A stretch of DNA of 64,000 bases from Candidatus Omnitrophota bacterium (GTDB lineage: Bacteria > Omnitrophota > Gorgyraeia > Gorgyraeales > Gorgyraeaceae): the NCBI GenBank assembly GCA_030691625.1, contig JAUYDX010000088.1, forward strand, positions 1,856-65,855. The letters are read 5' to 3'. The position numbers and the translations under genes were made by a program. Under the pieces are notes generated by a model that saw only the letters and a program-made list of their open reading frames with translations, did not search any database and was not told the origin of the DNA. This document shows positions 1,882 to 63,567 of this stretch, in pieces (position 1 is the first letter of the stretch; the number at the start of each line of letters is the position of its first letter).

Positions 1882-3522
<1,641 letters not shown>

Positions 3523-3609: not shown

Positions 3610-3623
3610 ATTAGGCCACACTT

Positions 3624-13052: not shown

Positions 13053-13062
13053 TTGTAGCGAT

Positions 13063-13109: not shown

Positions 13110-14393
13110 ATGATTAAAGCATTGCGCGGCACAAAAGATATTCTGCCAGGCGAGTCGGATTTATGGCAATTTATAGAATCTACTGGCAGGGATATATTTA
13201 ATATATATGGGTATAATGAGATAAGGACGCCGATAATAGAGGAGGCGTCTTTGTTTATAAGGGGCATAGGAGACCTGACTGACATAGTGCAGAAAGAGAT
13301 GTATGTTTTTTCTGACAGGGGCAATAGGCGAGTTGCGCTGAGGCCTGAGGCCACAGCGTCTATTGTCCGCGCGTATATAGAAAATTCAATGTCCCAGTCA
13401 GGCGGGGCCGCAAAGCTATTTTACACAGGCCCGATGTTCAGGAGCGAGAGGCCTCAGCAGGGCAGGCAGAGGCAGTTCTATCAGATAGGCGTGGAGGCAA
13501 TAGGCTCGGACAGCCCGTTTCTTGACGCTGAGGTTATTGCGCTGGCTGTGAGATTTCTTGACAGGCTTGGCGTTAAAAATTATCACGTGAAATTGAACAG
13601 CCTGGGCTGTCAGAAGGATAAAATGGCCGCAATAGCAAAACATAAAGAGAACTTTAAGCCTCATTTTGAAAAATTATGCGACACCTGCAAGGCCAGGTTT
13701 GACAAAAATGTCTTGAGGATATTTGACTGCAAGGGCGATACGTGCAGGGTCATTGCTGAAAATGTAAAGGTGGAGGCAGCGCTCTGCAATGACTGCGAGT
13801 CGCATTTTAAAAAGGTGAAACAGTGCCTGGACGAACTGGGCGTTAAATACACTGTGGATCATAAAATAGTAAGGGGCCTGGATTATTATACAAAGACTGT
13901 ATTTGAGATAACCCAGGATGACCTGGGCGCGAAAGACGCCATATGCGCCGGAGGCAGATATAATAATCTGGTAAAGGAACTGGGCGGGAAAGATACGCCT
14001 GCTACCGGGTTTGCTTTTGGCGTGGAGCGCCTGGCGCTTGCGTTAAAAGCTGTCAGCTGTCAGCATTCAGCTGTCAGCCCTAAAGTTTTTGTTGCGGTTG
14101 CGGGAGAAGGGCTTTACCCTGAAGCGTTTAAATTGCTGGATTCTTTGCGCGGCGCCGGGATCGCAAGCGAAATGGATTATGACGAGAGAAGCTTAAAGAG
14201 CCAGATGAGAAAGGCAGAGAAGCTCGGGGCAGGGTTTGTGGTTATTTTAGGGGAAGATGAGTTTAAAAAAGGCAAAGCTGTATTAAAGGATATGAGTAGC
14301 GGAGACCAAAAAGAAATAATGCTGAATGAAATTATTTCGGCGCTCCATACCATAAAAACTTCGCAGGTTGCCGAAGGCAACCTGCGAAGTTGA
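13110..14393 (+). CDS. hisS: histidyl-tRNA synthetase; C-terminal 11 aa and stop supplied by a family-2 palindrome
   Basis: class II aaRS motifs, MIKALRGTKDILP start; ends TSQVAEGNLRS* inside REP. Confidence 0.9.
   Translation: MIKALRGTKDILPGESDLWQFIESTGRDIFNIYGYNEIRTPIIEEASLFIRGIGDLTDIVQKEMYVFSDRGNRRVALRPEATASIVRAYIENSMSQSGGAAKLFYTGPMFRSERPQQGRQRQFYQIGVEAIGSDSPFLDAEVIALAVRFLDRLGVKNYHVKLNSLGCQKDKMAAIAKHKENFKPHFEKLCDTCKARFDKNVLRIFDCKGDTCRVIAENVKVEAALCNDCESHFKKVKQCLDELGVKYTVDHKIVRGLDYYTKTVFEITQDDLGAKDAICAGGRYNNLVKELGGKDTPATGFAFGVERLALALKAVSCQHSAVSPKVFVAVAGEGLYPEAFKLLDSLRGAGIASEMDYDERSLKSQMRKAEKLGAGFVVILGEDEFKKGKAVLKDMSSGDQKEIMLNEIISALHTIKTSQVAEGNLRS
14048..14078 (+). repeat. short tandem repeat (GCTGTCAGC x3) inside hisS coding sequence
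   Basis: gctgtcagctgtcagcattcagctgtcagc encoding AVSCQHSAVS. Confidence 0.7.
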
Positions 14394-14398
14394 GGTGG
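14356..14398. repeat. family-2 palindrome forming hisS 3' end and aspS RBS
   Basis: AACTTCGCAGGTTGCC-GAA-GGCAACCTGCGAAGTT + GAGGTGG. Confidence 0.9.
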
Positions 14399-16508: not shown

Positions 16509-16571
16509 CCGCCTCAACCTCGCAGGTTACCTCGCAGGTTACCTCGCAGGTAACCTGCGAGGTTGAGGCGG
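16509..16571. repeat. family-2 palindrome with internal triplication (CCTCGCAGGTTA x3)
   Basis: CCGCCTCAACCTCGCAGGTTACCTCGCAGGTTACCTCGCAGGTAACCTGCGAGGTTGAGGCGG. Confidence 0.9.
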
Positions 16572-16605
16572 TTTGTTGTAAAGTTGTTGAGGGTGTAAAC
16601 CTTGG

Positions 16606-19726: not shown

Positions 19727-20172
19727 AGATAGATATACAGAATCTGCAAAGTATAATCAAGCTTGATAAGGCTAAGATAACAGAGCGCGCAGGCGCGGTG
19801 TTAAGCGCCATGTCAGAACCTGACGCGGAATTGAGCCTGGTTTTCGTGAACGACATGTATATCAGGAATCTGAACTGGAAGTACAGGAGGATAGATTCCG
19901 CCACAGACGTGCTGGCGTTTCCCATGCGGGACTCGAGAGGGCTTTCAGGCTCCATACTGGGAGACGTGGTGATATCCGTGGAGACTGCGAGGCGCGAGGC
20001 AAAAAAACGAAAAAAGGATTTTCAGGAAGAGCTGGATTTATATCTGGCGCACGGCATATTGCATCTTTTAGGCTACGACGACGAAAAGCCAAGAGCAAGA
20101 AAGAAGATGAGAGAGAAGGAGAAAGAGCTCCTCCGTCTATTCCAAAGTTCTCGACTTAGTATTCATATATAG
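19723..20172 (+). CDS. ybeY: endoribonuclease YbeY; last ~10 codons and stop lie inside a family-4 MITE
   Basis: HGILHLLGYDD metal-binding motif; overlaps upstream stop (ATGA). Confidence 0.88.
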   Translation: MKIDIQNLQSIIKLDKAKITERAGAVLSAMSEPDAELSLVFVNDMYIRNLNWKYRRIDSATDVLAFPMRDSRGLSGSILGDVVISVETARREAKKRKKDFQEELDLYLAHGILHLLGYDDEKPRARKKMREKEKELLRLFQSSRLSIHI

Positions 20173-20245
20173 CCACAATGTCCGCTCGAACACTAATATT
20201 CTTCGAGCGGTCACGAAAGCTGGATGTGAGAGCAAAGTCGAGAAA
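20146..20245. mobile_element. family-4 MITE overlapping ybeY 3' end
   Basis: GTTCTCGACT...GTCCGCTCGAACACTAATATTCTTCGAGCGGTCACGAAAGC...AGTCGAGAAA. Confidence 0.8.
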
Positions 20246-21641: not shown

Positions 21642-22221
21642 CCTCATCCTTACTTTTTTTACAAAAGATTTCGGGAAGATAGACGGCATCATAAAAGGCG
21701 CCAGGGGCGCCAGGCCCAGGGGCGACGCTAACCCGATATTTTTCAGCCTGGACCAGATAGTTTTTTACGAAAAAAAATTTGGAGGCATCTCCATAATCTC
21801 GCAATGCGAGACAGAGGAGGTGTTCCTCAATATATTGAAGGAGTGGGCCAGGGCGTCGTCAGCTTATTACATGCTGGAACTGGCAGACGTATTCACCGAG
21901 CCTGAAGGCAGGTCAGAAGAGGTTTTCGAGGCGCTTTACAGCGGCTTTAAATCCCTAGACAGCGGGAAGGATGCCTCAGGTATAACCAGGCTTTTTGAGA
22001 TAAAATTACTCATGGCGCTTGGTTTCTGGCCTGGCGCGGAATATTTCAAGCTGACCAAAGGCGCGATGTCCAGCGTCATGCATCTTGAAAAAGAACCCTG
22101 GAAAACAGCCTCTAATATAAAACTGGCAAAAGAGGTAAATGGCGAGATCAGGGCTGTTACGGCTAAACTTATCGAAGAAAATCTTGACAGGCCGCTAAAA
22201 ACCGTCAGATTTTTAACTTAA
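21583..22221 (+). CDS. recO: DNA repair protein RecO
   Basis: MAIQKTEAILLKKKDFRETSLIL N-terminal OB fold typical of RecO. Confidence 0.75.
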   Translation: MAIQKTEAILLKKKDFRETSLILTFFTKDFGKIDGIIKGARGARPRGDANPIFFSLDQIVFYEKKFGGISIISQCETEEVFLNILKEWARASSAYYMLELADVFTEPEGRSEEVFEALYSGFKSLDSGKDASGITRLFEIKLLMALGFWPGAEYFKLTKGAMSSVMHLEKEPWKTASNIKLAKEVNGEIRAVTAKLIEENLDRPLKTVRFLT

Positions 22222-22262
22222 ACCTCGTAGGTTGCCGTAGGCAACCTACGAGGTTGTGGTGG
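22222..22262. repeat. family-2 palindrome between recO stop and glyQ start
   Basis: ACCTCGTAGGTTGCC-GTAG-GCAACCTACGAGGTT + GTGGTGG. Confidence 0.9.
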
Positions 22263-22267: not shown

Positions 22268-23113
22268 ATGAAAAAACTATCTTTTCAAGAAGTTGTGGAG
22301 AAGCTGAATAAGTTCTGGGCTGATAAGGGGTGTCTGATTGTCGAGCCGCTGGATACAGAGGTGGGCGCAGGCACTTTTCATCCAGCCACTTTTTTTAAAT
22401 CCCTTGGGAAAGACCCGTGGAGGGTGGCGTATGTCCAGCCTTCAAGGCGGCCGTGCGACGGAAGATACGCGGATAATCCTTTAAGGCTTCAGCATTATTA
22501 TCAGTATCAGGTGGTCATAAAGCCGACAGTCCCTGACATAAGAAAAATCTATCTGGACAGCCTCAAATACCTGGGTATAAATTTAAAGGCCCATGAGGTG
22601 AGATTTGTGGAAGACGACTGGGAATCTCCCACGCTGGGAGCGTCAGGACTGGGCTGGGAAGTCTGGCTGGACAGCCTGGAGATCACGCAGTTTACTTATT
22701 TTCAGCAGGTGGCAGGCATAGAGCTGGACATGGTGCCGTGCGAAATCACTTACGGGCTCGAACGCATATGCATGTTTATCCAGGAGAAATTCAATCTGTT
22801 TGACCTGGAGTGGCATAAGGGCGTGACCTACGGAGATATTCACAGGCGCCACGAACTGGAATATTCAAAATATAATTTCGAGGAAGCTGACATAGAGATG
22901 TATTTAAAGATGTTTGAATGGTTCGAGAAAGAGGCGAATAGGCTGGCGGATAAAGGCCTGGCGTATCCCGCGTACAGTTTCGCGCTCAAAGCGTCTCACG
23001 CGTTCAACGTGCTGGACGCGAGAGGCGCGATAAGCCAGAACGAGAGGCCGCGTTATATCGCGAGGGTGCGCGGACTTGCCAAACGCTGCGCCGAGACATA
23101 CCTTCAATCATAA
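22268..23113 (+). CDS. glyQ: glycyl-tRNA synthetase alpha subunit
   Basis: highly conserved GlyQ sequence ([16 protein letters not shown]...); start codon 6 nt after GGTGG provided by family-2 palindrome. Confidence 0.95.
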
Positions 23114-23156
23114 ACAACTTGACACTTGTGACATTGTTATAAGTGTCAAGTTGTTT
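23112..23156. repeat. family-1 palindrome copy H, between glyQ stop and glyS
   Basis: inverted repeat beginning at the glyQ TAA. Confidence 0.9.
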
Positions 23157-23172
23157 GGGGATGGGGAGTAGT

Positions 23173-25222: not shown

Positions 25223-25265
25223 TTTGGTGCCAGGCACCGTGCCAGGCACGGTGCCTGGCACCAAA
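25223..25265. repeat. family-3 palindrome with duplicated arm
   Basis: TTTGGTGCCAGGCACCGTGCCAGGCACGGTGCCTGGCACCAAA. Confidence 0.9.
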
Positions 25266-28021: not shown

Positions 28022-28061
28022 TTTGGTGCCTGGCACCATTTTAAAAGGTGCCAGGCACCAA
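28022..28061. repeat. family-3 palindrome
   Basis: TTTGGTGCCTGGCACC-ATTTTAAAA-GGTGCCAGGCACCAA. Confidence 0.9.
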
Positions 28062-29424: not shown

Positions 29425-29526
29425 AGTTCTCGACTAGGCTTGCATTTTAAGATTACTGCGTCCGCTCGAACAATAATATTCTTCGAGCGGCCCCGGGAGC
29501 GGGATACGTAAGCAGAGTCGAGAACT
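29425..29526. mobile_element. family-4 MITE between apt and tRNA-Arg
   Basis: GTTCTCGACT...CGCTCGAACAATAATATTCTTCGAGCGG...AGTCGAGAAC. Confidence 0.8.
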
Positions 29527-30853: not shown

Positions 30854-30896
30854 AAATGGTGCCAGGCACTACTACAAATAGTGCCTGGCACCATTT
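30854..30896. repeat. family-3 palindrome
   Basis: AAATGGTGCCAGGCACTACTACAAATAGTGCCTGGCACCATTT. Confidence 0.9.
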
Positions 30897-34021: not shown

Positions 34022-34063
34022 ATGGTGCCAGGCACCGTGCCTGGCACGGTGCCTGGCACCATC
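34021..34063. repeat. family-3 palindrome with duplicated arm
   Basis: AATGGTGCCAGGCACCGTGCCTGGCACGGTGCCTGGCACCAT. Confidence 0.9.
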
Positions 34064-34121: not shown

Positions 34122-34250
34122 TTACGACAAAGGCAAACCATTCGAAAGAATGGGGCGCAAAGTCAACAGGCCTAAAGCCCTGAAGGGCAACGGCGGCTGG
34201 ATTACCGAAATTAAAAACCTATTCTGCCATGAGGCCGGATAGGTTTTTTA
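34122..34250 (+). ncRNA. c-di-GMP-I (GEMM) riboswitch candidate with intrinsic terminator, in leader of RlpA-like gene
   Basis: GGCAAACC-AUUCGAAAGAAUGG-GGCGCAAAG-..GGCCUAAAG..GGAUUACCGAAAU closely matches the Vibrio Vc2 GEMM aptamer as recalled from memory (GGGCAAACCAUUCGAAAGAGUGGGACGCAAAGCC..GGCCUAAAC..GGUUACCGAUGG); followed by AACCUAU..AUAGGUUUUUU terminator 15 nt before the RBS. Confidence 0.6.
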
Positions 34251-34649: not shown

Positions 34650-34838
34650 AACTCGCCTATTATACCTAAGTACAATTGATTTCATTTTGACATTCCTCTA
34701 TAGTATAAGCAGGTTTTAGAATGAGGAGAAAGGAGGCAATATGAAAGCGGAGGAAAAGGGGTTCAAAAAATTTTTATTGACAAATCAATTAAGGTAATTT
34801 ATAATACTTATTAACAAACTTTTAAAAGGAGGTGCGTG

Positions 34839-37409
34839 ATGCACAAGAAATTCTTGTTTTTGACTATCACAGCTATTGTATTTTGCTCATTTGTATTGGT
34901 GGGACTGGGATTCTGCTACCAGGTTCCCGGAGAACAGAGTAACGTTAAATACCTTTATACATTCGGAAAAGACGGCCAAAAAACATACGGCGCAATGAAA
35001 ACCGGGCCTCTGGTAATATTCGTCAGAGTTCCCAGTACCTATAATGGCAACATCCAGATAGGTATTTATGATCCTGATACAGGCGGCGCAATAGATGAAA
35101 AAGACGGCCAGTGGGATACAATCACAAAGTTTTCTATTTTAGGCGGAAAGAAAACGTATACTTCACTCCTGGAAGCGGACGAGAGTCATGTGCTTATTGA
35201 TAAAGAAAGCGACACGAATCCTGTGGATCCTTACCATGGAGATCTATTAGCTGAAAAGACATTCGGCAATGATGAGCAGTATGACAAAAAGATTTATAGC
35301 TTTGACCCTATTGACGCTTCAAAGGGCGAAGAAGCAGGCGGCTACAGGTATTTTAAAATAGTGATAGAAGGGCTTTCAGGCAACGATAACAATCTTTTTT
35401 CATTAGATATCTCTCCTGATACGTTAGAGGCCTTTAGCTTCGCGCCTAGGATAAGATTAGCGGAAACACGCGGCGCGAAAATGGCTTTTTATCCAGAAAT
35501 ACCTTCTGACTCAAGTAGAATTTATGAATATAACTATGACTTGGATCCTACAGGCGGAACCATAGACCTCATAAGCGCTTCCAGGGATTTCAGGATAAAA
35601 GGTTCTGCGACAGGCATGTGGGAAAGCACAGAAATTAAAGTCCCCAGCCAGGACGCAGGCAAAAGATGGGTTTATGAAATAACAAAAGACAGGCAGAAAC
35701 AGGGTAATATGGCATTTAGTTTATTGACAGACAAGGGCAGGTCAATACCTATATACTTTACTCCCGGCGCCGAAGGCCCTAAGCTGGTATTTGTTGAAAA
35801 ACCAAAAGAAACGCCTGCGCCAACCGGACAGCCTCTTTCGTGCAATACCTTCACATTTGACGGCTCGAAATCCTATGCGGCTGATAATAGCAAGCTGGCG
35901 TATTTCTGGGATTTCGGCGACGGAACTACAAGCACGGATATGAGAATAATGCATACCTATAAAGATGCGGGCAAATACCTTGTTAAATTGACAGTAAAAG
36001 ACGCTTCAGACGCGGAATGCAACACCGCAGACACACAGCAGATGGTAAAGGTAAACCAGCCGCCATGCGCTATCGCGGACGGCCCTGATCTGTCATGTTT
36101 GAACGAAGAGATCACATTTGACGGTTCGCAGACAACAGACAGCCCGGATGACAAGCTTACTTACAGATGGGATTTCGGGGACGGCCAGACAGCTGACGGT
36201 ATAAAGGTGAAGCATAAATACGCAAGAGGCGGGAATTATCAGGCTACGCTGACGGTAACGGATGATTCCGGTACCATATGCGACACCAGCGTTGATAAAA
36301 TAAAGGTAGGTATTAATACGCCTCCTACGGCAGACGCGGGCAAGGACACATTTATATGCAGTGTGAACCCGAGCCAGCCTCTGGATGTGGCGTTTGACGC
36401 TGCCGGTTCAAAGGATCAGGACGGAGACAAGCTTACTTATACATGGGATTTCGGCGATGGCCAGACAGGCGAAGGAAGGACCGTAAAACACACCTACGCT
36501 AAAGGCGGAGAGTATATAGCGAAGCTTATAGTGAGCGACAATACAGACACAGAATGCGACAAGGCAGTATCTACTAAGACAGTGGTGCTGAACAGAGCCC
36601 CCATAGCGAACGCGGGCAACGATCTTCAGATATGCACGGGCGATACAGCCAGTTTTGACGCGTCCGGTTCAACAGATAACGACGGAGACAGACTTAGCTA
36701 TGCCTGGGATTTTGGGGACGGTGAAAAAGCTGAAGGCAAGACTGTTTCCCATAAATATACAAAAGGCGGGGTTTATCAGGTTAAACTTATCGTGGACGAT
36801 GGCGCAAAAACAGACTGCTCGAGCGCGTCTGATAAACTGCTCGTTAACGTGAACACAGCCCCGAGCGCGATAATCGCTTCCAAGGATACCGCTTCTGTGG
36901 GCCAGACTGTGAATTTTGACAGCGCCAACTCAAATGATCTGGACGGCGACAAGCTCGGCTACACATGGGATTTTGGCGATGGCACCAGCGCGAGCGGAAG
37001 CGCGGCAAAGCACAGCTATTCAAAAGGCGGGCTTTATAAGGTAACGCTCGTTGTAGACGACCAGAAGAGGACAGACTGCTCGTCAGCCATCAATTCCCAG
37101 TACGTGAAGGTCAATACGCCTCCTGCGGCAGTCACGGGCCCGAATCTGATAGCCTGCGTAGGTGACGAAATTGAATTTGACGGGTCTAAGTCTACTGACC
37201 TGGATGGAGATAAACTGACATACAGGTGGGATTTTGGAGACGGGGAAACAGCGGAAGGCTTGAAAGTAAAGCACGCTTATAAAAAGCTTGGAACTTACAA
37301 GGTGAGCCTGATGGTTACAGATGACTCCGGCGTTGAAGGTAATTCATCAACATCCAGTCTTATGGCAACTATACATGATCAGCCTGTTTCGAAAATAGAG
37401 GTCATGTAA
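34839..37409 (+). CDS. secreted protein with N-terminal domain and ~8 tandem PKD domains
   Basis: repeated Y(R/T/A)WDFGDG(Q/T/E).. blocks about 85 aa apart, signal peptide. Confidence 0.8.
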   Translation: MHKKFLFLTITAIVFCSFVLVGLGFCYQVPGEQSNVKYLYTFGKDGQKTYGAMKTGPLVIFVRVPSTYNGNIQIGIYDPDTGGAIDEKDGQWDTITKFSILGGKKTYTSLLEADESHVLIDKESDTNPVDPYHGDLLAEKTFGNDEQYDKKIYSFDPIDASKGEEAGGYRYFKIVIEGLSGNDNNLFSLDISPDTLEAFSFAPRIRLAETRGAKMAFYPEIPSDSSRIYEYNYDLDPTGGTIDLISASRDFRIKGSATGMWESTEIKVPSQDAGKRWVYEITKDRQKQGNMAFSLLTDKGRSIPIYFTPGAEGPKLVFVEKPKETPAPTGQPLSCNTFTFDGSKSYAADNSKLAYFWDFGDGTTSTDMRIMHTYKDAGKYLVKLTVKDASDAECNTADTQQMVKVNQPPCAIADGPDLSCLNEEITFDGSQTTDSPDDKLTYRWDFGDGQTADGIKVKHKYARGGNYQATLTVTDDSGTICDTSVDKIKVGINTPPTADAGKDTFICSVNPSQPLDVAFDAAGSKDQDGDKLTYTWDFGDGQTGEGRTVKHTYAKGGEYIAKLIVSDNTDTECDKAVSTKTVVLNRAPIANAGNDLQICTGDTASFDASGSTDNDGDRLSYAWDFGDGEKAEGKTVSHKYTKGGVYQVKLIVDDGAKTDCSSASDKLLVNVNTAPSAIIASKDTASVGQTVNFDSANSNDLDGDKLGYTWDFGDGTSASGSAAKHSYSKGGLYKVTLVVDDQKRTDCSSAINSQYVKVNTPPAAVTGPNLIACVGDEIEFDGSKSTDLDGDKLTYRWDFGDGETAEGLKVKHAYKKLGTYKVSLMVTDDSGVEGNSSTSSLMATIHDQPVSKIEVM

Positions 37410-44929: not shown

Positions 44930-45061
44930 ATGAGACGTTTTATCTGGATTGTTTTAGTGCTGGCGCTTGTGGCAGGGATAGCAGGATGCAGCAGGGCAAA
45001 ACGCATAGCCAATGACGTGGACTGGATTGTTTTTGACGGCCAGCCGTCAAAGGATAACTGA
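44930..45061 (+). CDS. small lipoprotein (43 aa), hypothetical
   Basis: SD GGAGGG, signal with lipobox IAGC; below ORF-track length cutoff. Confidence 0.3.
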
Positions 45062-45066
45062 TAAAA

Positions 45067-45107
45067 ACCTCGTAGGTTGCCAAAGGCAACCTGCGAGGTT
45101 GAGGTGG
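45067..45107. repeat. family-2 palindrome upstream of cysE
   Basis: ACCTCGTAGGTTGCC-AAA-GGCAACCTGCGAGGTT + GAGGTGG. Confidence 0.9.
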
Positions 45108-47778: not shown

Positions 47779-48061
47779 CCTTGTGAGGGTGTGGAAAGAG
47801 GTGGATATAGCGGATATAGCTAAAAGCCTTTTAATAATCGGGCTTTCAACAGGCGATTGTTCCAACTGCAGGGAACTGGGCATAGACTATTCCAGCGCCA
47901 AGGCCTGCCCTAAGTGCGGGGCTGTATTTAAATACATAGCTTCCAGGAGTAAAGAGATAAAAAAGATAAAAAATAAAAGGCCGGATTTGATATTTATAGA
48001 TCTTGAGGATTACAAAAAAGTCTCAGGGTCCATCAAGGCCAAGGATTTCTTCTCCGCTTGA
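47771..48061 (+). CDS. hypothetical small protein with CxxC..CxxC zinc-ribbon
   Basis: CSNC and CPKC pairs; overlaps upstream stop. Confidence 0.35.
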   Translation: MSDLVRVWKEVDIADIAKSLLIIGLSTGDCSNCRELGIDYSSAKACPKCGAVFKYIASRSKEIKKIKNKRPDLIFIDLEDYKKVSGSIKAKDFFSA

Positions 48062-48107
48062 CAAACTACTTTACATTGAGACAATGACGCAATGTAAAGT
48101 AGTTTAG
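48062..48107. repeat. family-1 palindrome copy M (TTTACATTG variant)
   Basis: same variant as copies G and Q. Confidence 0.85.
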
Positions 48108-48796
48108 AGGGAGTATTTGATGATGGCCCACAATACGCCCAGAGAATATATCCTTTTGAATTTTTTGCCTTCTTTGAATGTCCTGGCTTTATAGGGGATA
48201 GGGACCTCTCTGATTTTAAAACCCGCCTTGCTTATCTTAGCCGTTATTTCCGGCTCTATGTCAAAACCCCTGGATTTCAGGGTAATATTGCTCAGCGCGC
48301 GTTTTTTAAAGACCTTAAAACATGTCATGCAGTCTGTGAGGGATGTGCGGCACAGGGCATTTGTAAGGTAATTCCCGAAACGGTTTGCCAGAAAATACGA
48401 AAGCCTCATTCCTAAAGGGTGCGGTTCTGCCAGGAACCTGGAACCGTAAACAACGTCGGCATTTTCCGTTATAACAGGTTTCAGCAGGCTGGGATACAGG
48501 GAAGGGCTGTATTCCAGGTCAGCGTCCTGGATTATTATTATGTCGCCTGTGGCGTGCGCTATCCCTGATATGAGCGCCGCTCCTTTCCCCTGGTTTTTCA
48601 CGTGCCTGATAACCCTCGCGCTTGGCATTACTATGGAGGCCTTTTCAACCGTCTTGTCTGTGGACCCGTCGTCAATCAAAAGGACCTCTTTTTCAGATAT
48701 ACCGAAAGGAGAAAGGTCCAGGGATTTTATTTCCCTCATAACCTGGGCTATGGTGGCTTCTTCATTGTAAGCGGGTACCAGGATAGAAAGTTTCAT
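48104..48796 (-). CDS. family-2 glycosyltransferase (dolichyl-phosphate mannose synthase-like)
   Basis: GT2 motifs [22 protein letters not shown]. Confidence 0.85.
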
Positions 48797-48853
48797 AGAA
48801 GGCAGTATATACGAAAAATATCATTTTTGCAACCTTTTACTACCTTAACCTGC

Positions 48854-48886
48854 CCCAACCTACGAGGTAACCTGCGAGGTTGAAGA
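48854..48886. repeat. family-2 palindrome (partial left arm), upstream side of REPtron
   Basis: CCCCAACCTACGAGGTAACCTGCGAGGTTGAAG. Confidence 0.8.
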
Positions 48887-48946
48887 TAAAAAATTAAAAT
48901 TTTTGAAAGAAACCCCTCATCTAAATGTGTCTTATATGGTAAATAA

Positions 48947-48988
48947 ACCACCTCAACCTGCGAGGTAACCTGCGAGGTTGAAGTGGTT
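48947..48988. repeat. family-2 palindrome immediately 5' of RAYT gene
   Basis: AACCACCTCAACCTGCGAGGTAACCTGCGAGGTTGAAGTGGTT. Confidence 0.9.
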
Positions 48989-49008
48989 AAATCAAAGAGG
49001 AGGTGGAT

Positions 49009-49638
49009 ATGTTTGTTACAGGCGAAATTTATCATGTTTATAGTAAGAGTATAGCTGATTTTAAGATATTCAATAATGATTTTGAATACCAGAGAATTAA
49101 TAAAGCAATGCAATATTATCAAGTTTCTAAACGGCCTGGAAGTTTTTCTAACTTTTTGGAATACGGGAAACAGCTTTCAGCGGGTAATACCAATAATAAA
49201 CTGGTGCAAATTATTTCTTATTGTCCGATGCCGACTCATTTGCATTTTACCTTAAAGCAATTAATAGAAAAAGGGATATCAACATTTATGAGCAATGTCC
49301 TCAATAGCTATACCCGTTATTTTAATATCAAGCATAACCGTAAAGGTCCGCTATGGGAAGGGCGGTTCAAGAAAGTATTGGTGAAAAGCGATGAACAGCT
49401 AATTCATCTGACTCGCTATATCCATTTAAATCCTGTTACAGCAGGTTTGGTTAATAATCCGATAGATTGGCCATGGTCTTCTTATCATGAGTTTATTAAT
49501 AAAGATTTAACAGAAGACAGCATTTGTGAATACAAAAATATATTAGACATAAAACCTGATAGTTATAAAGCATTCACAGAAGATAGAGCTTCTTATCAAA
49601 GAGAATTGGCAAAAATAAAGCATATACTGATCGATTAG
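49009..49638 (+). CDS. REP-associated tyrosine transposase (RAYT; IS200/IS605 TnpA-like HUH enzyme)
   Basis: HUH motif HLHFTL, catalytic Tyr region RYIHLNPV, ~200 aa; flanked on both sides by inverted family-2 palindromes. Confidence 0.8.
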   Translation: MFVTGEIYHVYSKSIADFKIFNNDFEYQRINKAMQYYQVSKRPGSFSNFLEYGKQLSAGNTNNKLVQIISYCPMPTHLHFTLKQLIEKGISTFMSNVLNSYTRYFNIKHNRKGPLWEGRFKKVLVKSDEQLIHLTRYIHLNPVTAGLVNNPIDWPWSSYHEFINKDLTEDSICEYKNILDIKPDSYKAFTEDRASYQRELAKIKHILID

Positions 49639-49680
49639 ACCACCTTAACCTACGAGGTAACCTGCGAGGTTGAGATGGTT
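49639..49680. repeat. family-2 palindrome immediately 3' of RAYT gene
   Basis: GACCACCTTAACCTACGAGGTAACCTGCGAGGTTGAGATGGTT. Confidence 0.9.
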
Positions 49681-51411
49681 ATCAGGGTGTGGTATAATAG
49701 ACGCATGGCAGTTAAAAATATATTTTTAATTATCATTATAATTATCGCGGCAGCCGCGCCTTATATAAACTCCATGCACAATCCTTTCATCTGGGACGAG
49801 GAGGAGATTATAGTAAAAAATCCCGTGATAAAAGATTGGAGCTACCTGCCGCATGTTTTTAAGACAAACATTTTCGGGACAGCAATAACCCCGTCCGGTT
49901 ACTACAGGCCCATGTATACGCTGTCATTCATGGCAGATTACAATATCTGGGGCCTTAATACCTTCGGATACCACCTCTTTAATATCCTATTCCATGTTTT
50001 AAACGCTATTTTGCTGTATTTACTTCTCATGAAGCTTGGGCTGGACAGGAAAATCGCATGCTTTAGCAGTGTATTATTCGCTGTGTATCCGATAAACTGC
50101 GAAGCTGTTACGCTTATAGCCGCAAGAGTGGAGCTCATAGCGGGTTTTCTGCTTTTATCGTGCATGATATGTTTTATCAATGGCGTAAAAGGCCGGGGGC
50201 TTAATTTTCTATTGTCCATTATTTTCTTTGCGCTGGCCATGTTGACAAAAGAAAGCGTTATGGTATTCCCGTTTATACTACTGGCTTACACCCTGATATT
50301 CGTAGAGAAAAAGCCCGGGTCAAAGGCTATTTTACCTTTAATGGTTTTGATATTAATGGCCGCGTTTTACGGTATTGCCAGGTTCCTGCTTCTGGGCCAC
50401 TCGCCGGTCACAACCTTATCCCTTATAAACAGCGCCAGTTTTATTGAAAAGGTTTTTACGTTGCCGGGGATATTATTTACATATGTGTCGCTTATATTGT
50501 TTCCTGTCAGGCTGATAAGCGAATACGATTTTGTGCTGCGAAGTTTCTGGGATCCGCGCGTCTGGCTGGCAGCGTTTTTATTAATAGCCATGTTTTCAGC
50601 CGCGTATCTGCGGCTTAAGCCAAAAAAATATCCGCTATTTTTCATATCCTGGTTTTTAATAAGCCTGGCGCCTTACTTTAATATAATAATCCCCCTGCAT
50701 GCCACTCTTATGGAGCATTGGGCGTATTTTTCCACAATGGGTTTCGCTGCCCTGTCAGGGATAGCTGTTTTTAATATGGCTGAATCCGCGTCTTCCAGGT
50801 GGCTGAAAGGGCTTCTGATCCTGATGGCCGCGTCCCTTATCGGATTTTATATCGCGAAGATAACAGAGCGCAACATGGAATGGAGCGATCCTTTCAGGTT
50901 ATACCAGGCAGATGTTAAAAAAGAGCCGAATAGTTTTTTACTGCATTGCAATCTGGGCGTGGAGTATTTCAGGAGAGGGATGACGGAAGAGGCTGAAAAA
51001 GAATTCCTGGAATGCAATAATGTAAGCCCCGGCGGTAAATATGACACAGCCTGCAATAACCTGGGAGTGATATACGCGAGAAAAGGCAGGACAGAAGAGG
51101 CAATAGCTTTATACAAGGAGAGCATAGACATCAATAACTATCCCCTGGCTTATGAAAATTTAGGCGGGCTTTATAATGCCATGGGTAAACATAGAGACGC
51201 TGTATTAATTCTTGAAAAAGGCGCTGAGCTGTACCCATTAAACATTAATATCCTGTACCAGTTAGGGATCGCTTATTACATGAACAAGGAATTTGGCCCG
51301 GCTAAACAGATGTTTCTGAGGGTGGAGGGGATCCAGAAAAATTATTCAGACACAGCCAAATTCCTCAATCTCCTAAACAACTTGACACTTCAAACATTGT
51401 CACAAGTGTAA
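49675..51411 (+). CDS. polytopic membrane protein with C-terminal TPR repeats, paralog of 46174-47778; C-terminus and stop inside a family-1 palindrome
   Basis: same architecture and alignable N-terminus (..WDEEEII / FQFDDVKRIVG..) as the paralog. Confidence 0.6.
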   Translation: MVIRVWYNRRMAVKNIFLIIIIIIAAAAPYINSMHNPFIWDEEEIIVKNPVIKDWSYLPHVFKTNIFGTAITPSGYYRPMYTLSFMADYNIWGLNTFGYHLFNILFHVLNAILLYLLLMKLGLDRKIACFSSVLFAVYPINCEAVTLIAARVELIAGFLLLSCMICFINGVKGRGLNFLLSIIFFALAMLTKESVMVFPFILLAYTLIFVEKKPGSKAILPLMVLILMAAFYGIARFLLLGHSPVTTLSLINSASFIEKVFTLPGILFTYVSLILFPVRLISEYDFVLRSFWDPRVWLAAFLLIAMFSAAYLRLKPKKYPLFFISWFLISLAPYFNIIIPLHATLMEHWAYFSTMGFAALSGIAVFNMAESASSRWLKGLLILMAASLIGFYIAKITERNMEWSDPFRLYQADVKKEPNSFLLHCNLGVEYFRRGMTEEAEKEFLECNNVSPGGKYDTACNNLGVIYARKGRTEEAIALYKESIDINNYPLAYENLGGLYNAMGKHRDAVLILEKGAELYPLNINILYQLGIAYYMNKEFGPAKQMFLRVEGIQKNYSDTAKFLNLLNNLTLQTLSQV

Positions 51412-51420
51412 AGTTGTTAG
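51373..51420. repeat. family-1 palindrome copy N, supplies C-terminus and stop of TPR-membrane gene
   Basis: inverted repeat; host ORF ends ..NLTLQTLSQV* inside it. Confidence 0.9.
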
Positions 51421-51463
51421 GATGGCTTGACCGGAGATGGATTATGCGATATAATAAAAACCA

Positions 51464-52909
51464 ATGAGCGCTGGGAAAAAGAAGGTATTATTAGCTGAGC
51501 ATGAGACAGGCATTGCTGAAATAATCCAGTATCTCCTTAAGGCGTGGGATTACGAAACGATTATTATTTCAAAGGGCTCGGCAGTGCTGGAGGCAGTGAG
51601 GCGGGAACAGCCGGATATTATAATAATAGACTGGGGCCTGCCTGACATGGACGGCCTCAAGGTTTCCAGGGTACTCAAGGAAGATTTTCTCACCGCGCAC
51701 ATACCCGTAATAGTCCTCATAGACAAAAAACAGATAAGAAAAAAGATGCTCGAGATAGAGCAGGGCGTGGACGATTATATCGCCAACCCGCCTGACCCTA
51801 TAGACCTGGAGGTCAGGATGGAGCTTGCCCTGCGCAGGACCAGCCACCAGCTTTACGCGAATGCCCTCACAAAACTCCCGGGAAATAAACAGATAGAAAA
51901 GGCCATACATGCCAGGATGGATGCGAAAGAATTGTTTTCAGTGGCGTATTATGATATAGATAATTTTAAATCATTCAATGACAAATACGGCTACATGAAA
52001 GGCGACAGCGTGATAAGGCACACGGCTTATATTATCTCCACAACGGTCAAGAGATACGGTAATCCCGGCGATTTCGTGGGGCACATAGGAGGGGACGATT
52101 TCGTGGTGGTCACTACGCCTGACAGGGACAGGCTGGTCGCATCAGAGTCTATACTGGCCTTTACCAGGGCAGTGCATTTTCATTATTCAAAAGAGGACAG
52201 GGACAGGACTTATATAGTGGCAAAAGACAGGCGGGGCAACGTGGTGAATACGCCTCTGATGAGCATCTCAATAGCCATAGCGAACAATAAAAATTTCCCT
52301 ATAAAAAATATGGTGGAGCTGATGGAGATTATCACAGAGATAAAACATTACCTGAAGACCCTGCCCGGGAGCAATTTTCTTGTGAATAGGCGCCAGACTG
52401 AAAAGAGGTTATTCATAGAAGAACCCTGCGCCGCGCCGGGACAGGCTAACAAAGAAGATAAATTCAGGCATAAGCCGCTCGGCCAGATACTGCTGGAGTC
52501 GCAGGTGATTACGCCGGAACAGCTTGAAACCGCGCTAAACAGGCATTGGTCCACCGGCCAGAAAATAGGACAAAGCATAATGAACCTTGGCATGGCCAGC
52601 TCAGGTGATATTGCCAGGGCACTGGAAACGCAGTTCAATGTCCCGCACTTTGATATCCGGGACATGAGCGAAAACGGAGAATTAAAAGAGATAATGTCCA
52701 AGGTGTCTTTTGAGATAATGAAACATTACGGGGTTGTGCCTGTGAGAAAGGATAAAAATACGCTGCTCCTGGCAATGCTCGACCCTAAAAATATGGAGGC
52801 AATGGCTAAGATAAAAAGCCTCACTGGGTGCGTCATAGCGCCTTTATTTGTCCTGGAGAGCGAATTCAGCGAGATATTTGACAGGGTGGCGGTTAAATCA
52901 GGGCTATAA
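51464..52909 (+). CDS. response-regulator receiver + GGDEF diguanylate cyclase (GGDDF) + C-terminal MshEN/T2SSE_N c-di-GMP-binding domain
   Basis: REC with conserved Asp; GGDDF active-site variant with RxxD-like I-site region; C-terminal LGQILLESQVITPEQLETAL...LLLAMLDP pattern typical of the GspE-N/MshEN fold. Confidence 0.8.
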   Translation: MSAGKKKVLLAEHETGIAEIIQYLLKAWDYETIIISKGSAVLEAVRREQPDIIIIDWGLPDMDGLKVSRVLKEDFLTAHIPVIVLIDKKQIRKKMLEIEQGVDDYIANPPDPIDLEVRMELALRRTSHQLYANALTKLPGNKQIEKAIHARMDAKELFSVAYYDIDNFKSFNDKYGYMKGDSVIRHTAYIISTTVKRYGNPGDFVGHIGGDDFVVVTTPDRDRLVASESILAFTRAVHFHYSKEDRDRTYIVAKDRRGNVVNTPLMSISIAIANNKNFPIKNMVELMEIITEIKHYLKTLPGSNFLVNRRQTEKRLFIEEPCAAPGQANKEDKFRHKPLGQILLESQVITPEQLETALNRHWSTGQKIGQSIMNLGMASSGDIARALETQFNVPHFDIRDMSENGELKEIMSKVSFEIMKHYGVVPVRKDKNTLLLAMLDPKNMEAMAKIKSLTGCVIAPLFVLESEFSEIFDRVAVKSGL

Positions 52910-52911: not shown

Positions 52912-53090
52912 AAGAAAAAAGCCGATAAAGGCTTTTAGCTTCGGCTTTTCATCGCTCGGCAACCCGGCCGCCATATTATTACTGACTGCCTCACTGACCA
53001 TTTGCGTTAGCTCAGGTCACGGCTTGTCAGAATAACTTAGGCCCGTAGGCTTTGCGCCCCCTGATTTCTCAGGGTTTGCCCTTATCGGCT
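52912..53090 (-). ncRNA. c-di-GMP-I (GEMM) riboswitch-like RNA with own promoter and terminator, convergent with/antisense-oriented to the GGDEF gene
   Basis: minus-strand RNA AGCCGAUAAGGGCAAACC-CUGAGAAAUCAGG-GGGCGCAAAGCC-UACGGGCCUAAG...GGCGGCCGGGUUGCCGAGCGAUG matches the GEMM consensus; ends in a hairpin plus U6. Confidence 0.55.
52917..52950. terminator. bidirectional intrinsic terminator (ends GGDEF gene on + and GEMM RNA on -)
   Basis: AAGCCGA..TCGGCTT hairpin flanked by A-run on one side and T-run on the other. Confidence 0.6.
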
Positions 53091-53137: not shown

Positions 53138-53183
53138 CAACAACTTGACACTTGTAACAATGTCACAAGTGTCAAGTTGTTGG
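53138..53183. repeat. family-1 palindrome copy O
   Basis: inverted repeat. Confidence 0.9.
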
Positions 53184-55654: not shown

Positions 55655-55738
55655 AAAACAACTTGACGCGGAGACATTGTCTCAATGTCAAGAAACAACT
55701 TTACATTGAGACAATGACGCAATGTAAAGTTGTTTGGG
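55655..55738. repeat. tandem pair of family-1 palindromes (degenerate copy P + variant copy Q) in divergent intergenic region
   Basis: AACAACTTGACGCGGAGACATTGTCTCAATGTCAAG followed by AAACAACTTTACATTGAGACAATGACGCAATGTAAAGTTGTTT. Confidence 0.8.
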
Positions 55739-61293: not shown

Positions 61294-61392
61294 GGTTCTC
61301 GACTTTGCTGCCGTAATAAGCTTTCGTGACCGCTCGAACAATATTGTTCGAGCGGACGTTGTGGCTATGCATGTAAGCTTAGTCGAGAACCC
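61293..61392. mobile_element. family-4 MITE between polA and coaE, perfect 12-bp TIRs GGGTTCTCGACT/AGTCGAGAACCC
   Basis: TIRs and internal CGCTCGAACAATATTGTTCGAGCG palindrome. Confidence 0.85.
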
Positions 61393-61408
61393 TTGCGACG
61401 AGAAAGAC

Positions 61409-63223: not shown

Positions 63224-63270
63224 ATGTCCAACTTCGCAAGTTGCCCACGGCAACTTGCGAAGTTGGACAT
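63224..63270. repeat. family-2 palindrome (CCAACTTCGCAAGTTGCC variant) between rho and rpmE
   Basis: ATGTCCAACTTCGCAAGTTGCC-CAC-GGCAACTTGCGAAGTTGGACAT. Confidence 0.9.
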
Positions 63271-63520: not shown

Positions 63521-63567
63521 AACCTCGCAGGTTACCTACGAGGTAACCTGCGAGGTTGAGGTGGTTT
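63521..63567. repeat. family-2 palindrome supplying RBS of prfA
   Basis: AACCTCGCAGGTTACCTACGAGGTAACCTGCGAGGTTGAGGTGG then TTTTAAATG. Confidence 0.9.

What the first reader, a model, noticed from the sequence alone, without database searches (positions are those of the whole stretch)
48854..49680. REPtron: RAYT tyrosine transposase flanked by inverted family-2 palindromes, with about 10 dispersed cognate REPs whose ends mimic Shine-Dalgarno sites
ORF 49009-49638 has the HUH (HLHFTL) and catalytic Tyr (RYIHLNPV) hallmarks of REP-associated tyrosine transposases. It is bracketed by copies of a roughly 45-bp palindrome, CCACCTCAACCTCGCAGGTTACC..GGTAACCTGCGAGGTTGAGGTGG.

Eight more copies are scattered in the window. 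Because the element is palindromic, either orientation ends in GAGGTGG. In at least six cases that motif lies 5-7 nt before the start codon of the next gene (aspS 14403, glyQ 22268, cysE 45114, RAYT 49009, prfA 63571, TPR gene 49675). The REP apparently supplies the ribosome-binding site.

The REPtron sits between two paralogous TPR-membrane genes, next to a GT2 gene on the opposite strand.
Basis: partly seen in the sequence, partly recalled or inferred. Interest (0 to 1): 0.7.

Follow-up and report, generated by a model that had tools for sequence, protein, structure and literature searches.

The report
Omnitrophota RAYT transposase with ribosome-site-bearing repeats
A domesticated-type tyrosine transposase gene in an uncultured Omnitrophota genome sits between copies of a short hairpin repeat, and four scattered copies of that repeat have replaced the tight junctions in front of essential genes, so that the repeat's own end is now their only recognisable ribosome-binding site.

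Summary
The RAYT call is right. ORF 49009-49638 passes Pfam Y1_Tnp, and its best solved relative is E. coli TnpA-REP. Its only NCBIfam hit is REP_Tyr_transpos, below the curated cut-off.

The repeat is real: 11 arms in 8 loci against 0.08 expected. It is built from a 12-nt module, AACCT-GCG-AGGTT.

Several details in the finding are wrong:
- The three copies at the RAYT are direct, not inverted.
- Only five further loci exist, not eight to ten.
- The RAYT has its own separate SD.
- The ATG at 49675 lies inside the repeat. The likely TPR start is 49705.

The ribosome-site idea survives for four genes (aspS, glyQ, cysE, prfA):
- A one-sided tail, GAGGTGG or GTGGTGG, lies 4-7 nt before homology-confirmed starts. 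It is the only SD-like sequence there.
- These four copies lack the complementary CCACCTC arm.
- Repeat-free syntenic relatives have junctions from a 4-nt overlap to 7 nt, with weak SDs inside the upstream gene.

So the repeat replaced the native signals. In hisS it also supplies the stop codon. Function is inferred, not shown.

Repeats carrying ribosome sites are known (Neisseria REP2), but I found none reported for RAYT-linked REPs. I rate it a new variant of a known kind, of moderate interest.

The parts
49009..49638 (+). RAYT-type Y1 (HUH) tyrosine transposase gene, 209 aa
   Evidence: Pfam Y1_Tnp scores 27.5 bits, above the cut-off of 23. The best PDB match is 4ER8, TnpA-REP, E=3e-6. NCBIfam REP_Tyr_transpos scores 62 bits, below the cut-off of 80. 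HUH and Tyr are invariant in 21 homologues. It is 100% identical to an NCBI Omnitrophota MAG protein. It is the only such ORF in the window.
48997..49006 (+). The RAYT's own Shine-Dalgarno sequence GAGGAGGTGG, 10 nt downstream of the repeat and not part of it
   Evidence: Read directly from the sequence. Duplex with a canonical anti-SD is -16.4 kcal/mol. The MFE fold pairs it with a segment 5' of the repeat, both here and in L017.
48948..48986 (+). Upstream flanking repeat: CCACCTC + AACCTGCGAGGT + AACCTGCGAGGTT + GAAGTGG (two-tailed, two direct modules)
   Evidence: (family D13). The ssDNA hairpin has z=-6.1 on either strand. Tail pairing probability is 0.85.
49640..49678 (+). Downstream flanking repeat in the same orientation: CCACCTT + AACCTACGAGGT + AACCTGCGAGGTT + GAGATGG. 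It starts 1 nt after the RAYT stop codon.
   Evidence: direct-alignment score 67 against inverted 38. ssDNA z=-3.1.
48840..48888 (+). Third, degenerate copy upstream (CTACCTTAACCT..AACCTACGAGGTAACCTGCGAGGTTGAAGATA). It is absent from the orthologous locus L017.
   Evidence: (D13).
49670..49698 (+). Promoter-like site TTGAGA-17-TGnTATAAT. Its -35 hexamer is the tail of the downstream repeat. ATG 49705 lies 6 nt after the -10 hexamer.
   Evidence: It is one of the two best sigma-70 matches in 48000-51600, at 11 of 12 plus TG. This is a consensus match only.
14357..14398 (+). One-tailed repeat: a 16-bp hairpin (14357-14391) plus the tail GAGGTGG (14392-14398), before aspS (ATG 14403/14406). The hisS ORF reads through the hairpin and stops at the TGA inside the tail region.
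   Evidence: hisS carries about 22 extra C-terminal residues beyond its profile. NCBI starts aspS at the second ATG, giving 456 aa. The REP-free junctions in L101-L103 are shown.
16509..16571 (+). Two-tailed four-module copy, CCGCCTC[-][-][-][+]GAGGCGG, 34 nt before the phoH-like start. Its outer arms carry a compensatory A>G / T>C change.
   Evidence: Tail pairing probability is 1.0. ssDNA z=-13. The same junction in L100 holds other repeats.
22221..22262 (+). One-tailed repeat abutting the recO stop codon. The tail GTGGTGG lies 5 nt before the glyQ ATG at 22268.
   Evidence: The REP-free relatives L101/L102 have an ATGA overlap here.
45066..45107 (+). One-tailed repeat. The tail GAGGTGG lies 6 nt before the cysE ATG at 45114.
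   Evidence: L106 keeps a half-repeat with its tail at the same spacing, and L105 has a different SD.
63521..63564 (+). One-tailed repeat ([-][+'][+] modules). The tail GAGGTGG lies 6 nt before the prfA ATG at 63571.
   Evidence: In L001 rpmE and prfA are 2 nt apart, with no repeat.

Best explanation
SHOWN
The locus is a REPtron-type unit of an Omnitrophota-specific clade of REP-associated tyrosine transposases.
- The RAYT gene is bracketed by two same-orientation imperfect hairpins.
- These hairpins are made of a 12-nt module, AACCT-GCG-AGGTT, plus outer arms CCACCTC...GAGGTGGTT.

INFERRED BY HOMOLOGY
By analogy with E. coli TnpA-REP and IS200/IS605 TnpA, the enzyme binds these hairpins as single-stranded DNA. 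It then cuts and rejoins next to them. This has spread solo copies to at least five other intergenic sites in this 64-kb stretch.

SHOWN BY COMPARISON WITH RELATIVES
Four of those copies landed in junctions that range from a 4-nt overlap to 7 nt in repeat-free relatives: hisS|aspS, recO|glyQ, x|cysE and rpmE|prfA.
- There the downstream gene's weak SD lies inside the upstream ORF.
- The insertion pushed the genes 50-70 nt apart and removed the native signals.

INFERRED
The surviving copies are all oriented so that the repeat's 3' flank GAGGTGG(TT) lies 4-7 nt before the ATG.
- GAGGTG matches the canonical anti-SD at six positions.
- These copies have lost, or never had, the complementary CCACCTC arm, so the tail is not locked into the hairpin.

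My reading is that the tail now serves as the Shine-Dalgarno site of these four essential genes. In hisS it also provides the stop codon. The hairpin itself probably acts as an intercistronic RNA structure.

The SD-likeness stems from the CCACCT/AGGTGG and AACCT/AGGTT stems that are common in this RAYT clade. It lets this repeat family survive in tight operon junctions.
For: RAYT identity.

Repeat reality and structure:
-.
- 4 of 16 stem pairs show double compensatory changes and none is broken (alignment).

The tail belongs to the repeat:
- It is present on the RAYT-flanking copies and on the 16509 copy, all away from start codons.
- It is present as GAGGTGGTTAAAT on the flank of the 77% orthologue L017, although that repeat's module differs (AACCTACGCGGT).

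Starts confirmed by profile alignment.

Position:
- 4 of 5 dispersed copies end within 7 nt of a start.
- The chance of this is P~7e-6 for a 6-nt window, even if insertions are confined to intergenic DNA.

Comparative junctions:
- L101/L102: hisS|aspS gap of 1 nt with AAAGGAAG; recO|glyQ ATGA overlap.
- L103: hisS|aspS gap of 7 nt.
- L001: rpmE|prfA gap of 2 nt.

Predicted SD strength:
- Start-proximal tails: -13.2, -8.5, -12.3 and -12.6 kcal/mol.
- Tails elsewhere: -6.6, -6.5, -1.5 and -8.7 kcal/mol.
- Native SDs in relatives: -0.3 to -8.4 kcal/mol.

Tail accessibility: mean pairing probability is 0.30-0.60 in one-tailed copies and 0.85-1.0 in the three copies that keep both arms.

L106 keeps unit + tail (ATCTACGCGGTTGGGATGG) 6 nt before cysE, although the 5' half of the hairpin is gone.

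Control: the other repeat families of the window (F1, F4) sit upstream of retained native SDs. Examples are glyS, PPDK and hisS.
Against: - There are no expression, ribosome-profiling or mutational data. SD function is inferred from sequence alone.
- Only four cases exist, all within 64 kb. The rest of the genome could not be retrieved.
- The organism's 16S 3' end is not in the window, so the anti-SD was assumed to be canonical.
- In L103 glyQ follows a different repeat with no SD-like sequence at all. These genes may therefore not need an SD.
- Folding still pairs part of the tail in the aspS and glyQ contexts.
- The uniform orientation could reflect the strand bias of single-strand transposition, because almost all genes in the window share one strand.
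- RAYT activity on these repeats is inferred from homology only.
Confidence: 0.6

Rival explanations
1. The SD-likeness is incidental and has no role in translation. The hairpins are selfish DNA, or act only as RNA stabilisers or processing sites. The downstream genes are translated without an SD, from A/U-rich leaders or by residual coupling. The uniform orientation comes from the strand bias of Y1 single-strand transposition. The close spacing to the ATG follows simply because only insertions between an adjacent stop and start leave both genes intact.
For: - L103 glyQ follows an unrelated repeat, and the leader AAAAAAGCGTAAAA-ATG has no SD.
- Native SDs at these junctions in relatives are weak, at -0.3 to -8.4 kcal/mol.
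- CCACCT/AGGTGG and AACCT/AGGTT stems are common on the RAYT flanks of this clade regardless of context.
- Nearly all genes are on one strand.
Against: - Start-proximal tails keep the GAGGTG core, while tails elsewhere are degenerate.
- The complementary arm is missing exactly in the four start-proximal copies.
- L106 retains the tail at the same spacing after the hairpin decayed.
- Most other genes in the window use strong canonical SDs, so the organism does use SDs.
Confidence: 0.22
2. The GAGGTGG next to the ATG is the native SD or target site. The repeat proper is only the hairpin, and it inserts next to SD-like sequences. This would resemble IS200/IS605 elements, which insert 3' of a specific tetra- or pentanucleotide.
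For: - IS608 and ISDra2 have strict adjacent target sequences (established knowledge, summarised in PMC3333891).
- F1 and F4 repeats in this window sit immediately upstream of native SDs.
- In L001 an F2-type hairpin is followed by a separate native SD, AAGGAGGA.
Against: - The tail is uniform: GAGGTGGTT in 3 of 4 copies. It differs from the genome's usual GGAGG-type SDs.
- It occurs on copies not adjacent to starts, and on the RAYT flanks of two genomes.
- In two-tailed copies it is mirrored by CCACCTC, with a compensatory change in the 16509 copy.
- Repeat-free relatives have AAAGGAAG, GGCGGT or CAGGTT at these sites, never GAGGTGG.
Confidence: 0.1
3. RAYT plus its two direct hairpins is an autonomous IS200/IS605-like insertion sequence that moves as a unit, rather than a stationary domesticated REPtron.
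For: - The flanking hairpins are in direct orientation, like the LE and RE hairpins of IS608. This holds here, in L017 and in most of the 72 orthologous loci compared.
- The cassette is absent from the same GT2|response-regulator site in L105, L106 and L107.
- L105 has a solo hairpin, CCACCTTAACAGGTGG, at that spot.
- The contigs of L105 and L106 appear to carry RAYT homologues elsewhere. This is inferred from matching contig lengths.
Against: - The cassette is at the same site in two genomes, and their RAYT divergence (77%) matches that of the neighbouring genes (81-86%).
- There is a single copy in the window.
- The best matches are RAYT models, not IS200 TnpA.
- Solo repeats are dispersed without the gene.
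- Loss through recombination between the direct flanking repeats explains both the empty sites and the L105 scar.
Confidence: 0.12

Closest known systems
E. coli REPtron (tnpA-REP bordered by REP/BIME; Ton-Hoang et al. 2012, PMC3333891; structure 4ER8, PMC3479197)
   Same: - It is a Y1 HUH transposase with the RAYT C-terminal motif.
- The gene is bordered by its cognate imperfect palindromes.
- Solo copies are dispersed in intergenic DNA.
- The gene sits at a lineage-stable site and has been lost from some relatives.
   Different: - The flanking copies are direct single elements, not BIME pairs of inverted REPs.
- No free 5' GTAG tag is present. A GTAG/GCAG lies inside the stem (CTCGTAGGTT).
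- The protein is about 45 aa longer and falls below the NCBIfam RAYT equivalog cut-off.
- The repeat's flank doubles as an SD.
REPIN-RAYT systems of Pseudomonas (Bertels and Rainey 2011, PMC3116915, PMC3337134)
   Same: - The dispersed copies are two imperfect mini-palindromes in inverted orientation that form one long hairpin.
- A central asymmetry (GCG/CGC here, AA/TT there) marks orientation.
- Flanking sequences 'a' and 'b' exist, as do long a-palindrome-a^c forms.
   Different: - The modules are far smaller (12 nt), with almost no spacer.
- Density is low in related genomes.
- The copies beside the RAYT are direct doublets rather than REPINs.
IS200/IS605 family (IS608, ISDra2)
   Same: - It has a Y1 transposase.
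- Hairpins in the same orientation lie at both ends of the gene.
- No terminal inverted repeats or target duplications were detected.
   Different: - Sequence affinity is to RAYTs.
- The gene is single copy.
- Solo hairpins are spread without the gene.
- The cassette sits at the same site in two diverged genomes.
Neisseria REP2 and Borrelia IR repeats (Delihas 2011, PMC3184786)
   Same: They are interspersed repeats that lie immediately upstream of genes and carry the ribosome-binding site used by those genes.
   Different: - REP2 is a longer 5'-UTR-like unit with a promoter, RBS and ATG.
- It has no relation to REPs or to a RAYT.
- It is not a hairpin inserted into operon junctions.
MIRUs of mycobacteria, and GTAG REPs that supply stop codons (PMC3184786; Di Nocera et al. 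2013, PMC3733652)
   Same: - These repeats lie in intercistronic junctions of operons, and their ends overlap or complete the neighbouring ORFs.
- Here the hisS stop codon lies in the repeat, and a sister repeat sits in-frame inside dnaE.
   Different: - MIRUs are tandem minisatellite-like units with no known RAYT.
- The 2013 survey mentions stop codons and intragenic REPs. It has no occurrence of 'Shine-Dalgarno' or 'ribosome'.

Membership tests
RAYT (REP-associated tyrosine transposase) | HUH metal-binding motif and a single catalytic Tyr in a Y1_Tnp fold | tested here: met
   THLHF (H77, H79) and RYIHLNP (Y137) are invariant in 21 homologues. Pfam PF01797 scores 27.5 bits against a cut-off of 23.
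RAYT (REP-associated tyrosine transposase) | Closer to TnpA-REP than to IS200/IS605 TnpA, including the C-terminal DWPxS motif | tested here: met
   The only significant PDB hit is 4ER8, TnpA-REP (E=3e-6), with DWPWSSY aligned to DWPFSTF. The only NCBIfam hit is NF047646, REP_Tyr_transpos.
RAYT (REP-associated tyrosine transposase) | Reaches the curated NCBIfam equivalog score for REP_Tyr_transpos | tested here: not met
   It scores 62 bits against a cut-off of 80. It is therefore a divergent clade: 3456 homologues at E<1e-5, with every named hit among the 120 listed from Omnitrophota/Omnitrophica.
REPtron | RAYT gene bordered on both sides by copies of the repeat family that is dispersed in the same genome | tested here: met
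   Copies lie at 48948-48986 and 49640-49678, with 48840-48888 as a third. They share the 12-nt module and the tail with five dispersed loci.
REPtron | Flanking REPs organised as inverted pairs (BIME/REPIN) | tested here: not met
   Both flanks are direct doublets in the same orientation: direct-alignment score 67 against inverted 38. The same holds in L017 and in most orthologous loci.
REPtron | High genomic copy number of the cognate REP | not testable with these tools
   There are five dispersed loci in 64 kb. The genome is not in the searchable collections. Relatives show 0-1 extra copies within +/-10 kb.
REPtron | Gene does not transpose as a unit (lineage-stable, single copy) | tested here: inconclusive
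   The cassette is at the same GT2|RR site in the window and in L017, with matching divergence. It is absent from that site in L105-L107. There is one copy in the window.
GTAG-tagged REP superfamily (Di Nocera 2013) | Conserved GTAG tetranucleotide at one end of the hairpin | tested here: inconclusive
   GTAG or GCAG occurs inside the stem (AACCTC-GTAG-GTTGCC) in this family and in many orthologous flanks. It is not an unpaired terminal tag.
Functional Shine-Dalgarno site | At least 5-6 nt complementary to the anti-SD, 4-9 nt upstream of a verified start, and no alternative SD | tested here: met
   GAGGTG lies 5-8 nt before the homology-confirmed ATGs of aspS, cysE and prfA. GTGGTG lies before glyQ. 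Duplex energies are -8.5 to -13.2 kcal/mol with an assumed canonical anti-SD.
Functional Shine-Dalgarno site | Translation depends on the motif | not testable with these tools
   This needs reporter mutagenesis or ribosome profiling.

The most novel reading that the evidence does not exclude
This Omnitrophota REP lineage is a portable 'operon-junction cassette'. It is a RAYT-dispersed hairpin whose flank carries a ready-made ribosome-binding site. It can also donate a stop codon (hisS) or a -35 box (TPR paralogue).

That cargo is what lets it colonise the overlapping or near-abutting gene junctions of a streamlined genome. As a result, translation of essential genes (aspS, glyQ, cysE, prfA) now depends on mobile-element DNA.

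The same junctions are repeatedly re-colonised by different REP families in sister lineages.
Probability: 0.3. Interest if true: 0.65.

Novelty: new variant of a known kind. Interest (0 to 1): 0.45.

Why it matters
RAYT/REP systems are known mainly from Proteobacteria. There REPs are credited with roles in mRNA stability, termination and protein binding.

This case extends them to a candidate phylum with compact genomes. It is also comparatively well documented: a RAYT-linked repeat has replaced the native stop/SD signals of essential genes.

If the tail is the working SD, it shows how selfish hairpin repeats can survive in near-gapless operons by bringing their own translation signals. It would also make REP turnover a source of variation in expression of housekeeping genes.

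There is a practical warning for annotation. In this window the repeats misled simple first-in-frame-start ORF calls:
- the TPR gene start (49675 instead of 49705)
- the hisS C-terminus
- an in-frame insertion in dnaE

Tried and rejected
1. Genome-wide census. A scan of GTDB representative genomes for GGYAACCTGCGAGGTTGA found only single, mostly chance hits. The window's genome is not there.
2. Exact look-ups of the RAYT and of L31 found nothing on record. Two earlier L31 look-ups failed because my coordinates were off by one.
3. Rfam has no family at any repeat.
4. Literature searches for RAYT/REP together with Shine-Dalgarno, and for Omnitrophota REPs, gave no relevant paper. A pneumococcal BOX paper was not relevant.
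5. I looked by eye for target-site duplications around the four one-tailed copies. Only short A/T-rich matches (TAAA and the like) turned up, and these cannot be told apart from chance or from the palindrome's own AAACC/GGTTT ends.
6. A sigma-70 promoter for the RAYT in the conserved block TTTTTGAAAG...TATATGG was not called by the scan. A TTGAAA-to-TTATAT pairing read by eye would need about a 23-nt spacer, so I make no promoter claim.
7. The hairpins are not intrinsic terminators. The scan of 48000-51600 called none at the RAYT-flanking copies. By eye, no U-tract directly follows any of the stems.
8. 'GGTTA' as a clade-wide right-end motif is enriched (51% and 32% of flanks against 11% of control windows) but not universal. 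I use it only as supporting colour.
Full report
**SOURCE AND GENE**

The window comes from an uncultured Candidatus Omnitrophota genome. The ORF 49009-49638 is 100% identical to an NCBI MAG protein on a 72,839-nt contig.

The ORF is a Y1/HUH transposase of the RAYT type:
- Pfam Y1_Tnp scores 27.5 bits against a gathering score of 23.
- The only significant solved relative is E. coli TnpA-REP, 4ER8, at E=3e-6. HLH aligns to HMH, YIHLNPV to YIYINPV and DWPWSSY to DWPFSTF.
- The only NCBIfam hit is REP_Tyr_transpos, at 62 bits. That is below the equivalog cut-off of 80.
- H77, H79 and Y137 are invariant in an alignment of 21 homologues.

The clade is large. It has 3456 proteins at E<1e-5, and every named hit among the 120 listed is from Omnitrophota/Omnitrophica. 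No second RAYT is present in the window.

**THE REPEAT**

AACCTGCGAGGTTGA with up to 2 mismatches occurs 11 times, against 0.08 expected. These arms fall in eight loci.

The building block is a 12-13-nt mini-palindrome, AACCT-GCG-AGGTT. Its reverse complement differs only in the centre (CGC), so the central triplet marks orientation.

There are two architectures.

(i) Two-tailed copies
- The RAYT flanks 48948-48986 and 49640-49678 have the form CCACCTC + two direct + modules + GARRTGG.
- The copy at 16509-16571 is CCGCCTC[-][-][-][+]GAGGCGG.
- In the three copies that keep both arms (48948-48986, 49640-49678 and 16509-16571), the tail pairs with the 5' arm, with probability 0.85-1.0.
- A third, degenerate copy at 48840-48888 belongs to this group.

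(ii) One-tailed copies
- Coordinates are 14357-14398, 22221-22262, 45066-45107 and 63521-63564.
- Each has an A-rich 5' side, a 16-17-bp hairpin [-]loop[+], and then GAGGTGG (GTGGTGG at glyQ).

As single-stranded DNA the copies fold with z-scores of -3 to -13. In the alignment, 4 of the 16 stem pairs show double compensatory changes and none is disrupted.

Its 'eight more copies' are five loci.

**CONSERVATION OF THE ARRANGEMENT**

A 77%-identical RAYT (L017) sits at the same site, between a minus-strand GT2 gene and a GGDEF response regulator. It is flanked by two direct copies of ACCACCTCAACCTACGCGGTAACCTACGCGGTTGAGGTGG. The arms and tail are the same, but the module differs.

I compared the two flanks of each of the 72 metagenome RAYT loci that had enough sequence on both sides.
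- In the large majority the flanks share a short imperfect palindrome.
- Often the direct alignment scores higher than the inverted one.
- The core is frequently AACCTCGTAGGTT or CCACCTCGTAGGTGG.
- Few extra copies lie within +/-10 kb.

CCACCT/AGGTGG-type stems are therefore common in the clade. That is where the SD-likeness comes from.

The cassette is absent from the GT2|RR site in three equally distant relatives, L105-L107. GT2 identity among the five genomes is 77-83%. L105 has a solo hairpin, CCACCTTAACAGGTGG, exactly there. This fits deletion by recombination between the direct flanks, but it does not exclude gain.

**THE RIBOSOME-SITE CLAIM**

Profile alignments confirm the four start codons. 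NCBI starts aspS at the second ATG.

| Gene | Start (ATG) | Nt between tail and ATG |
|---|---|---|
| aspS | 14403 / 14406 | 4 / 7 |
| glyQ | 22268 | 5 |
| cysE | 45114 | 6 |
| prfA | 63571 | 6 |

No other SD-like sequence lies in between.

The two other claimed cases fail:
- The RAYT's SD (48997-49006) lies outside the repeat.
- ATG 49675 lies inside the tail. The paralogue alignment supports 49705 as the TPR start.

The position is unlikely by chance. Four of five dispersed copies end within a 6-nt window before a start. That has P~7e-6 even if insertions are restricted to intergenic DNA.

**IS THE TAIL REPEAT-BORNE OR NATIVE?**

Syntenic relatives settle much of this.

| Junction | Repeat-free relative | State there |
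|---|---|---|
| hisS\|aspS | L101/L102 | 1-nt gap, SD AAAGGAAG inside hisS |
| hisS\|aspS | L103 | 7-nt gap, GGCGGT |
| recO\|glyQ | L101/L102 | ATGA overlap |
| rpmE\|prfA | L001 | 2-nt gap |
| upstream of cysE | L105 | ACAGGAGC |

- None of these relatives has GAGGTGG.
- In the window, hisS has lost its native end. It reads through the hairpin to a TGA in the tail region, which adds about 22 residues.
- The tail is the same sequence as on the RAYT flanks of both the window and L017.
- L106 keeps a half-repeat, ATCTACGCGGTTGGGATGG, 6 nt before cysE, although the 5' half of the hairpin is gone.

Predicted duplex energies with a canonical anti-SD:

| Class | kcal/mol |
|---|---|
| Start-proximal tails | -13.2, -8.5, -12.3, -12.6 |
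| Other tails | -6.6, -6.5, -1.5, -8.7 |
| Native SDs of relatives | -0.3 to -8.4 |

Control: the window's other repeat families (F1, F4) sit upstream of retained native SDs. For example, glyS has GGGGATGGGGAGTAGT-ATG where L101 has GGGATGAGATAGAA-ATG, and PPDK keeps AGAAAGGAAGG.

I conclude that the F2 repeat carries the SD-like sequence with it, and that this sequence has replaced the native signals at four junctions.

The close spacing follows from insertion into junctions of 7 nt or less. The orientation and the one-tailed form are what one expects if only SD-restoring insertions survive.

**CAVEATS**

- Nothing here shows translation from the tail.
- L103 glyQ follows an unrelated repeat with no SD at all.
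- Part of the tail is predicted to pair in two contexts.
- The anti-SD is assumed, not read from this genome.
- Orientation could reflect the strand bias of single-strand transposition, since nearly all genes share one strand.
- The genome-wide test could not be run.

**KNOWN CONTEXT**

- REPtrons, RAYTs and REPINs are established (PMC3333891, PMC3116915, PMC3337134).
- GTAG REPs are reported to supply stop codons and to lie inside ORFs (PMC3733652).
- Neisseria REP2 and Borrelia IR repeats carry a promoter, RBS and ATG. MIRU ends overlap operon neighbours (PMC3184786).
- I found no report of a RAYT-linked REP supplying an SD, and none of REPs in Omnitrophota.

**VERDICT**

This is a new clade member of a known system with a new twist. 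It is worth a genome-wide follow-up but is not categorically new.

Noticed in passing
window 1391-57475 (for example 1816-1860, 23113-23157, 53139-53183); also 15779-15824, 48063-48108, 55693-55738: A second, much more abundant palindromic family is present: AACAACTTGACACTT..AAGTGTCAAGTTGTT, with 14 copies. A variant built on ..ACATTGAGACAATGACG.. adds 4 more. These copies fill intergenic gaps but keep the native SDs downstream. No cognate RAYT is in the window.
   Followed up: partly
window 13061-13098, 25225-25263, 28024-28060, 30857-30893, 34023-34061; and 551-675, 3531-3610, 5994-6095, 20147-20244, 29426-29524, 61295-61393: Two further repeat families occur. One is TGGTGCCAGGCACC..GGTGCCTGGCACCA. 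The other is a roughly 100-nt composite, GTTCTCGACT..CGCTCGAACAATATT..GAGTCGAGAA. The 64 kb therefore carries at least five palindromic repeat families.
   Followed up: no
window 10065-10142 (repeat 10077-10124): A sister repeat, TGTCCAACTTCGCAAGTTGCC..GGCAACTTGCGAAGTTGGACA, lies in-frame inside dnaE. It adds about 26 residues relative to the L103 orthologue, at the PHP/palm linker. A second copy lies upstream of rpmE (63225-63269).
   Followed up: partly
window about 10800-10940: dnaE changes reading frame. The N-terminal part is in one frame up to about 10865, and the C-terminal part is in another from about 10792 to 12630. This is either an assembly error or a real frameshift.
   Followed up: no
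window 14327-14393: The hisS ORF runs through the repeat hairpin and stops at a TGA in the tail region. This gives about 22 C-terminal residues with no counterpart in the hisS profile or in relatives.
   Followed up: yes
window 49670-49705: The tail of the downstream RAYT-flanking repeat (TTGAGA) forms the -35 of an 11/12 sigma-70-like site with an extended -10. ATG 49705 follows the -10 by 6 nt, which suggests a leaderless mRNA for the TPR paralogue. That gene is absent from this position in L017.
   Followed up: partly
L100 270-345; L103 16625-16685, 8674-8710, 11972-12039; window 16572-16606: In sister genomes the same gene junctions (hisS|aspS, recO|glyQ, HU|hisS, LysM|next gene) are occupied by different repeat families. 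In the window, half of another repeat (TTGTAAAGTTGTT) remains just after the F2 copy at 16509-16571. The junctions look like recurrent insertion or replacement hot spots.
   Followed up: partly
L105 about 7205-7220; L107 3320-3727: At the site where the window and L017 carry the RAYT cassette, L105 has only a solo hairpin, CCACCTTAACAGGTGG. L107 has an unrelated roughly 250-nt long-inverted-repeat element.
   Followed up: partly
window 48912-48922 with 48997-49006; L017 about 3190-3197 with 3274-3281: In both genomes the MFE fold pairs the RAYT's SD with a segment upstream of the repeat hairpin. The pairing sequences differ: CGCUUCC/GGAGGCG in L017. This may be SD sequestration of the kind reported for IS200 tnpA, but it rests on only two sequences.
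   Followed up: partly
window 34122-34209 (+) and 52954-53089 (-): Two c-di-GMP-I riboswitch matches were found, at 81.8 bits and 59.9 bits. The second only just reaches its gathering score of 59. It lies on the strand opposite to the neighbouring genes, directly after a GGDEF response-regulator gene.
   Followed up: no
window 44931-45075: A short lipoprotein-like ORF ([21 protein letters not shown]...) and a small hairpin lie between the histidine-kinase gene and the cysE repeat. L105 and L106 have only 34-47 nt there.
   Followed up: no
window 35891-37244: Five to six tandem 261-276-nt repeats lie inside a large ORF (34836-37409). They are presumably repeated protein domains.
   Followed up: no
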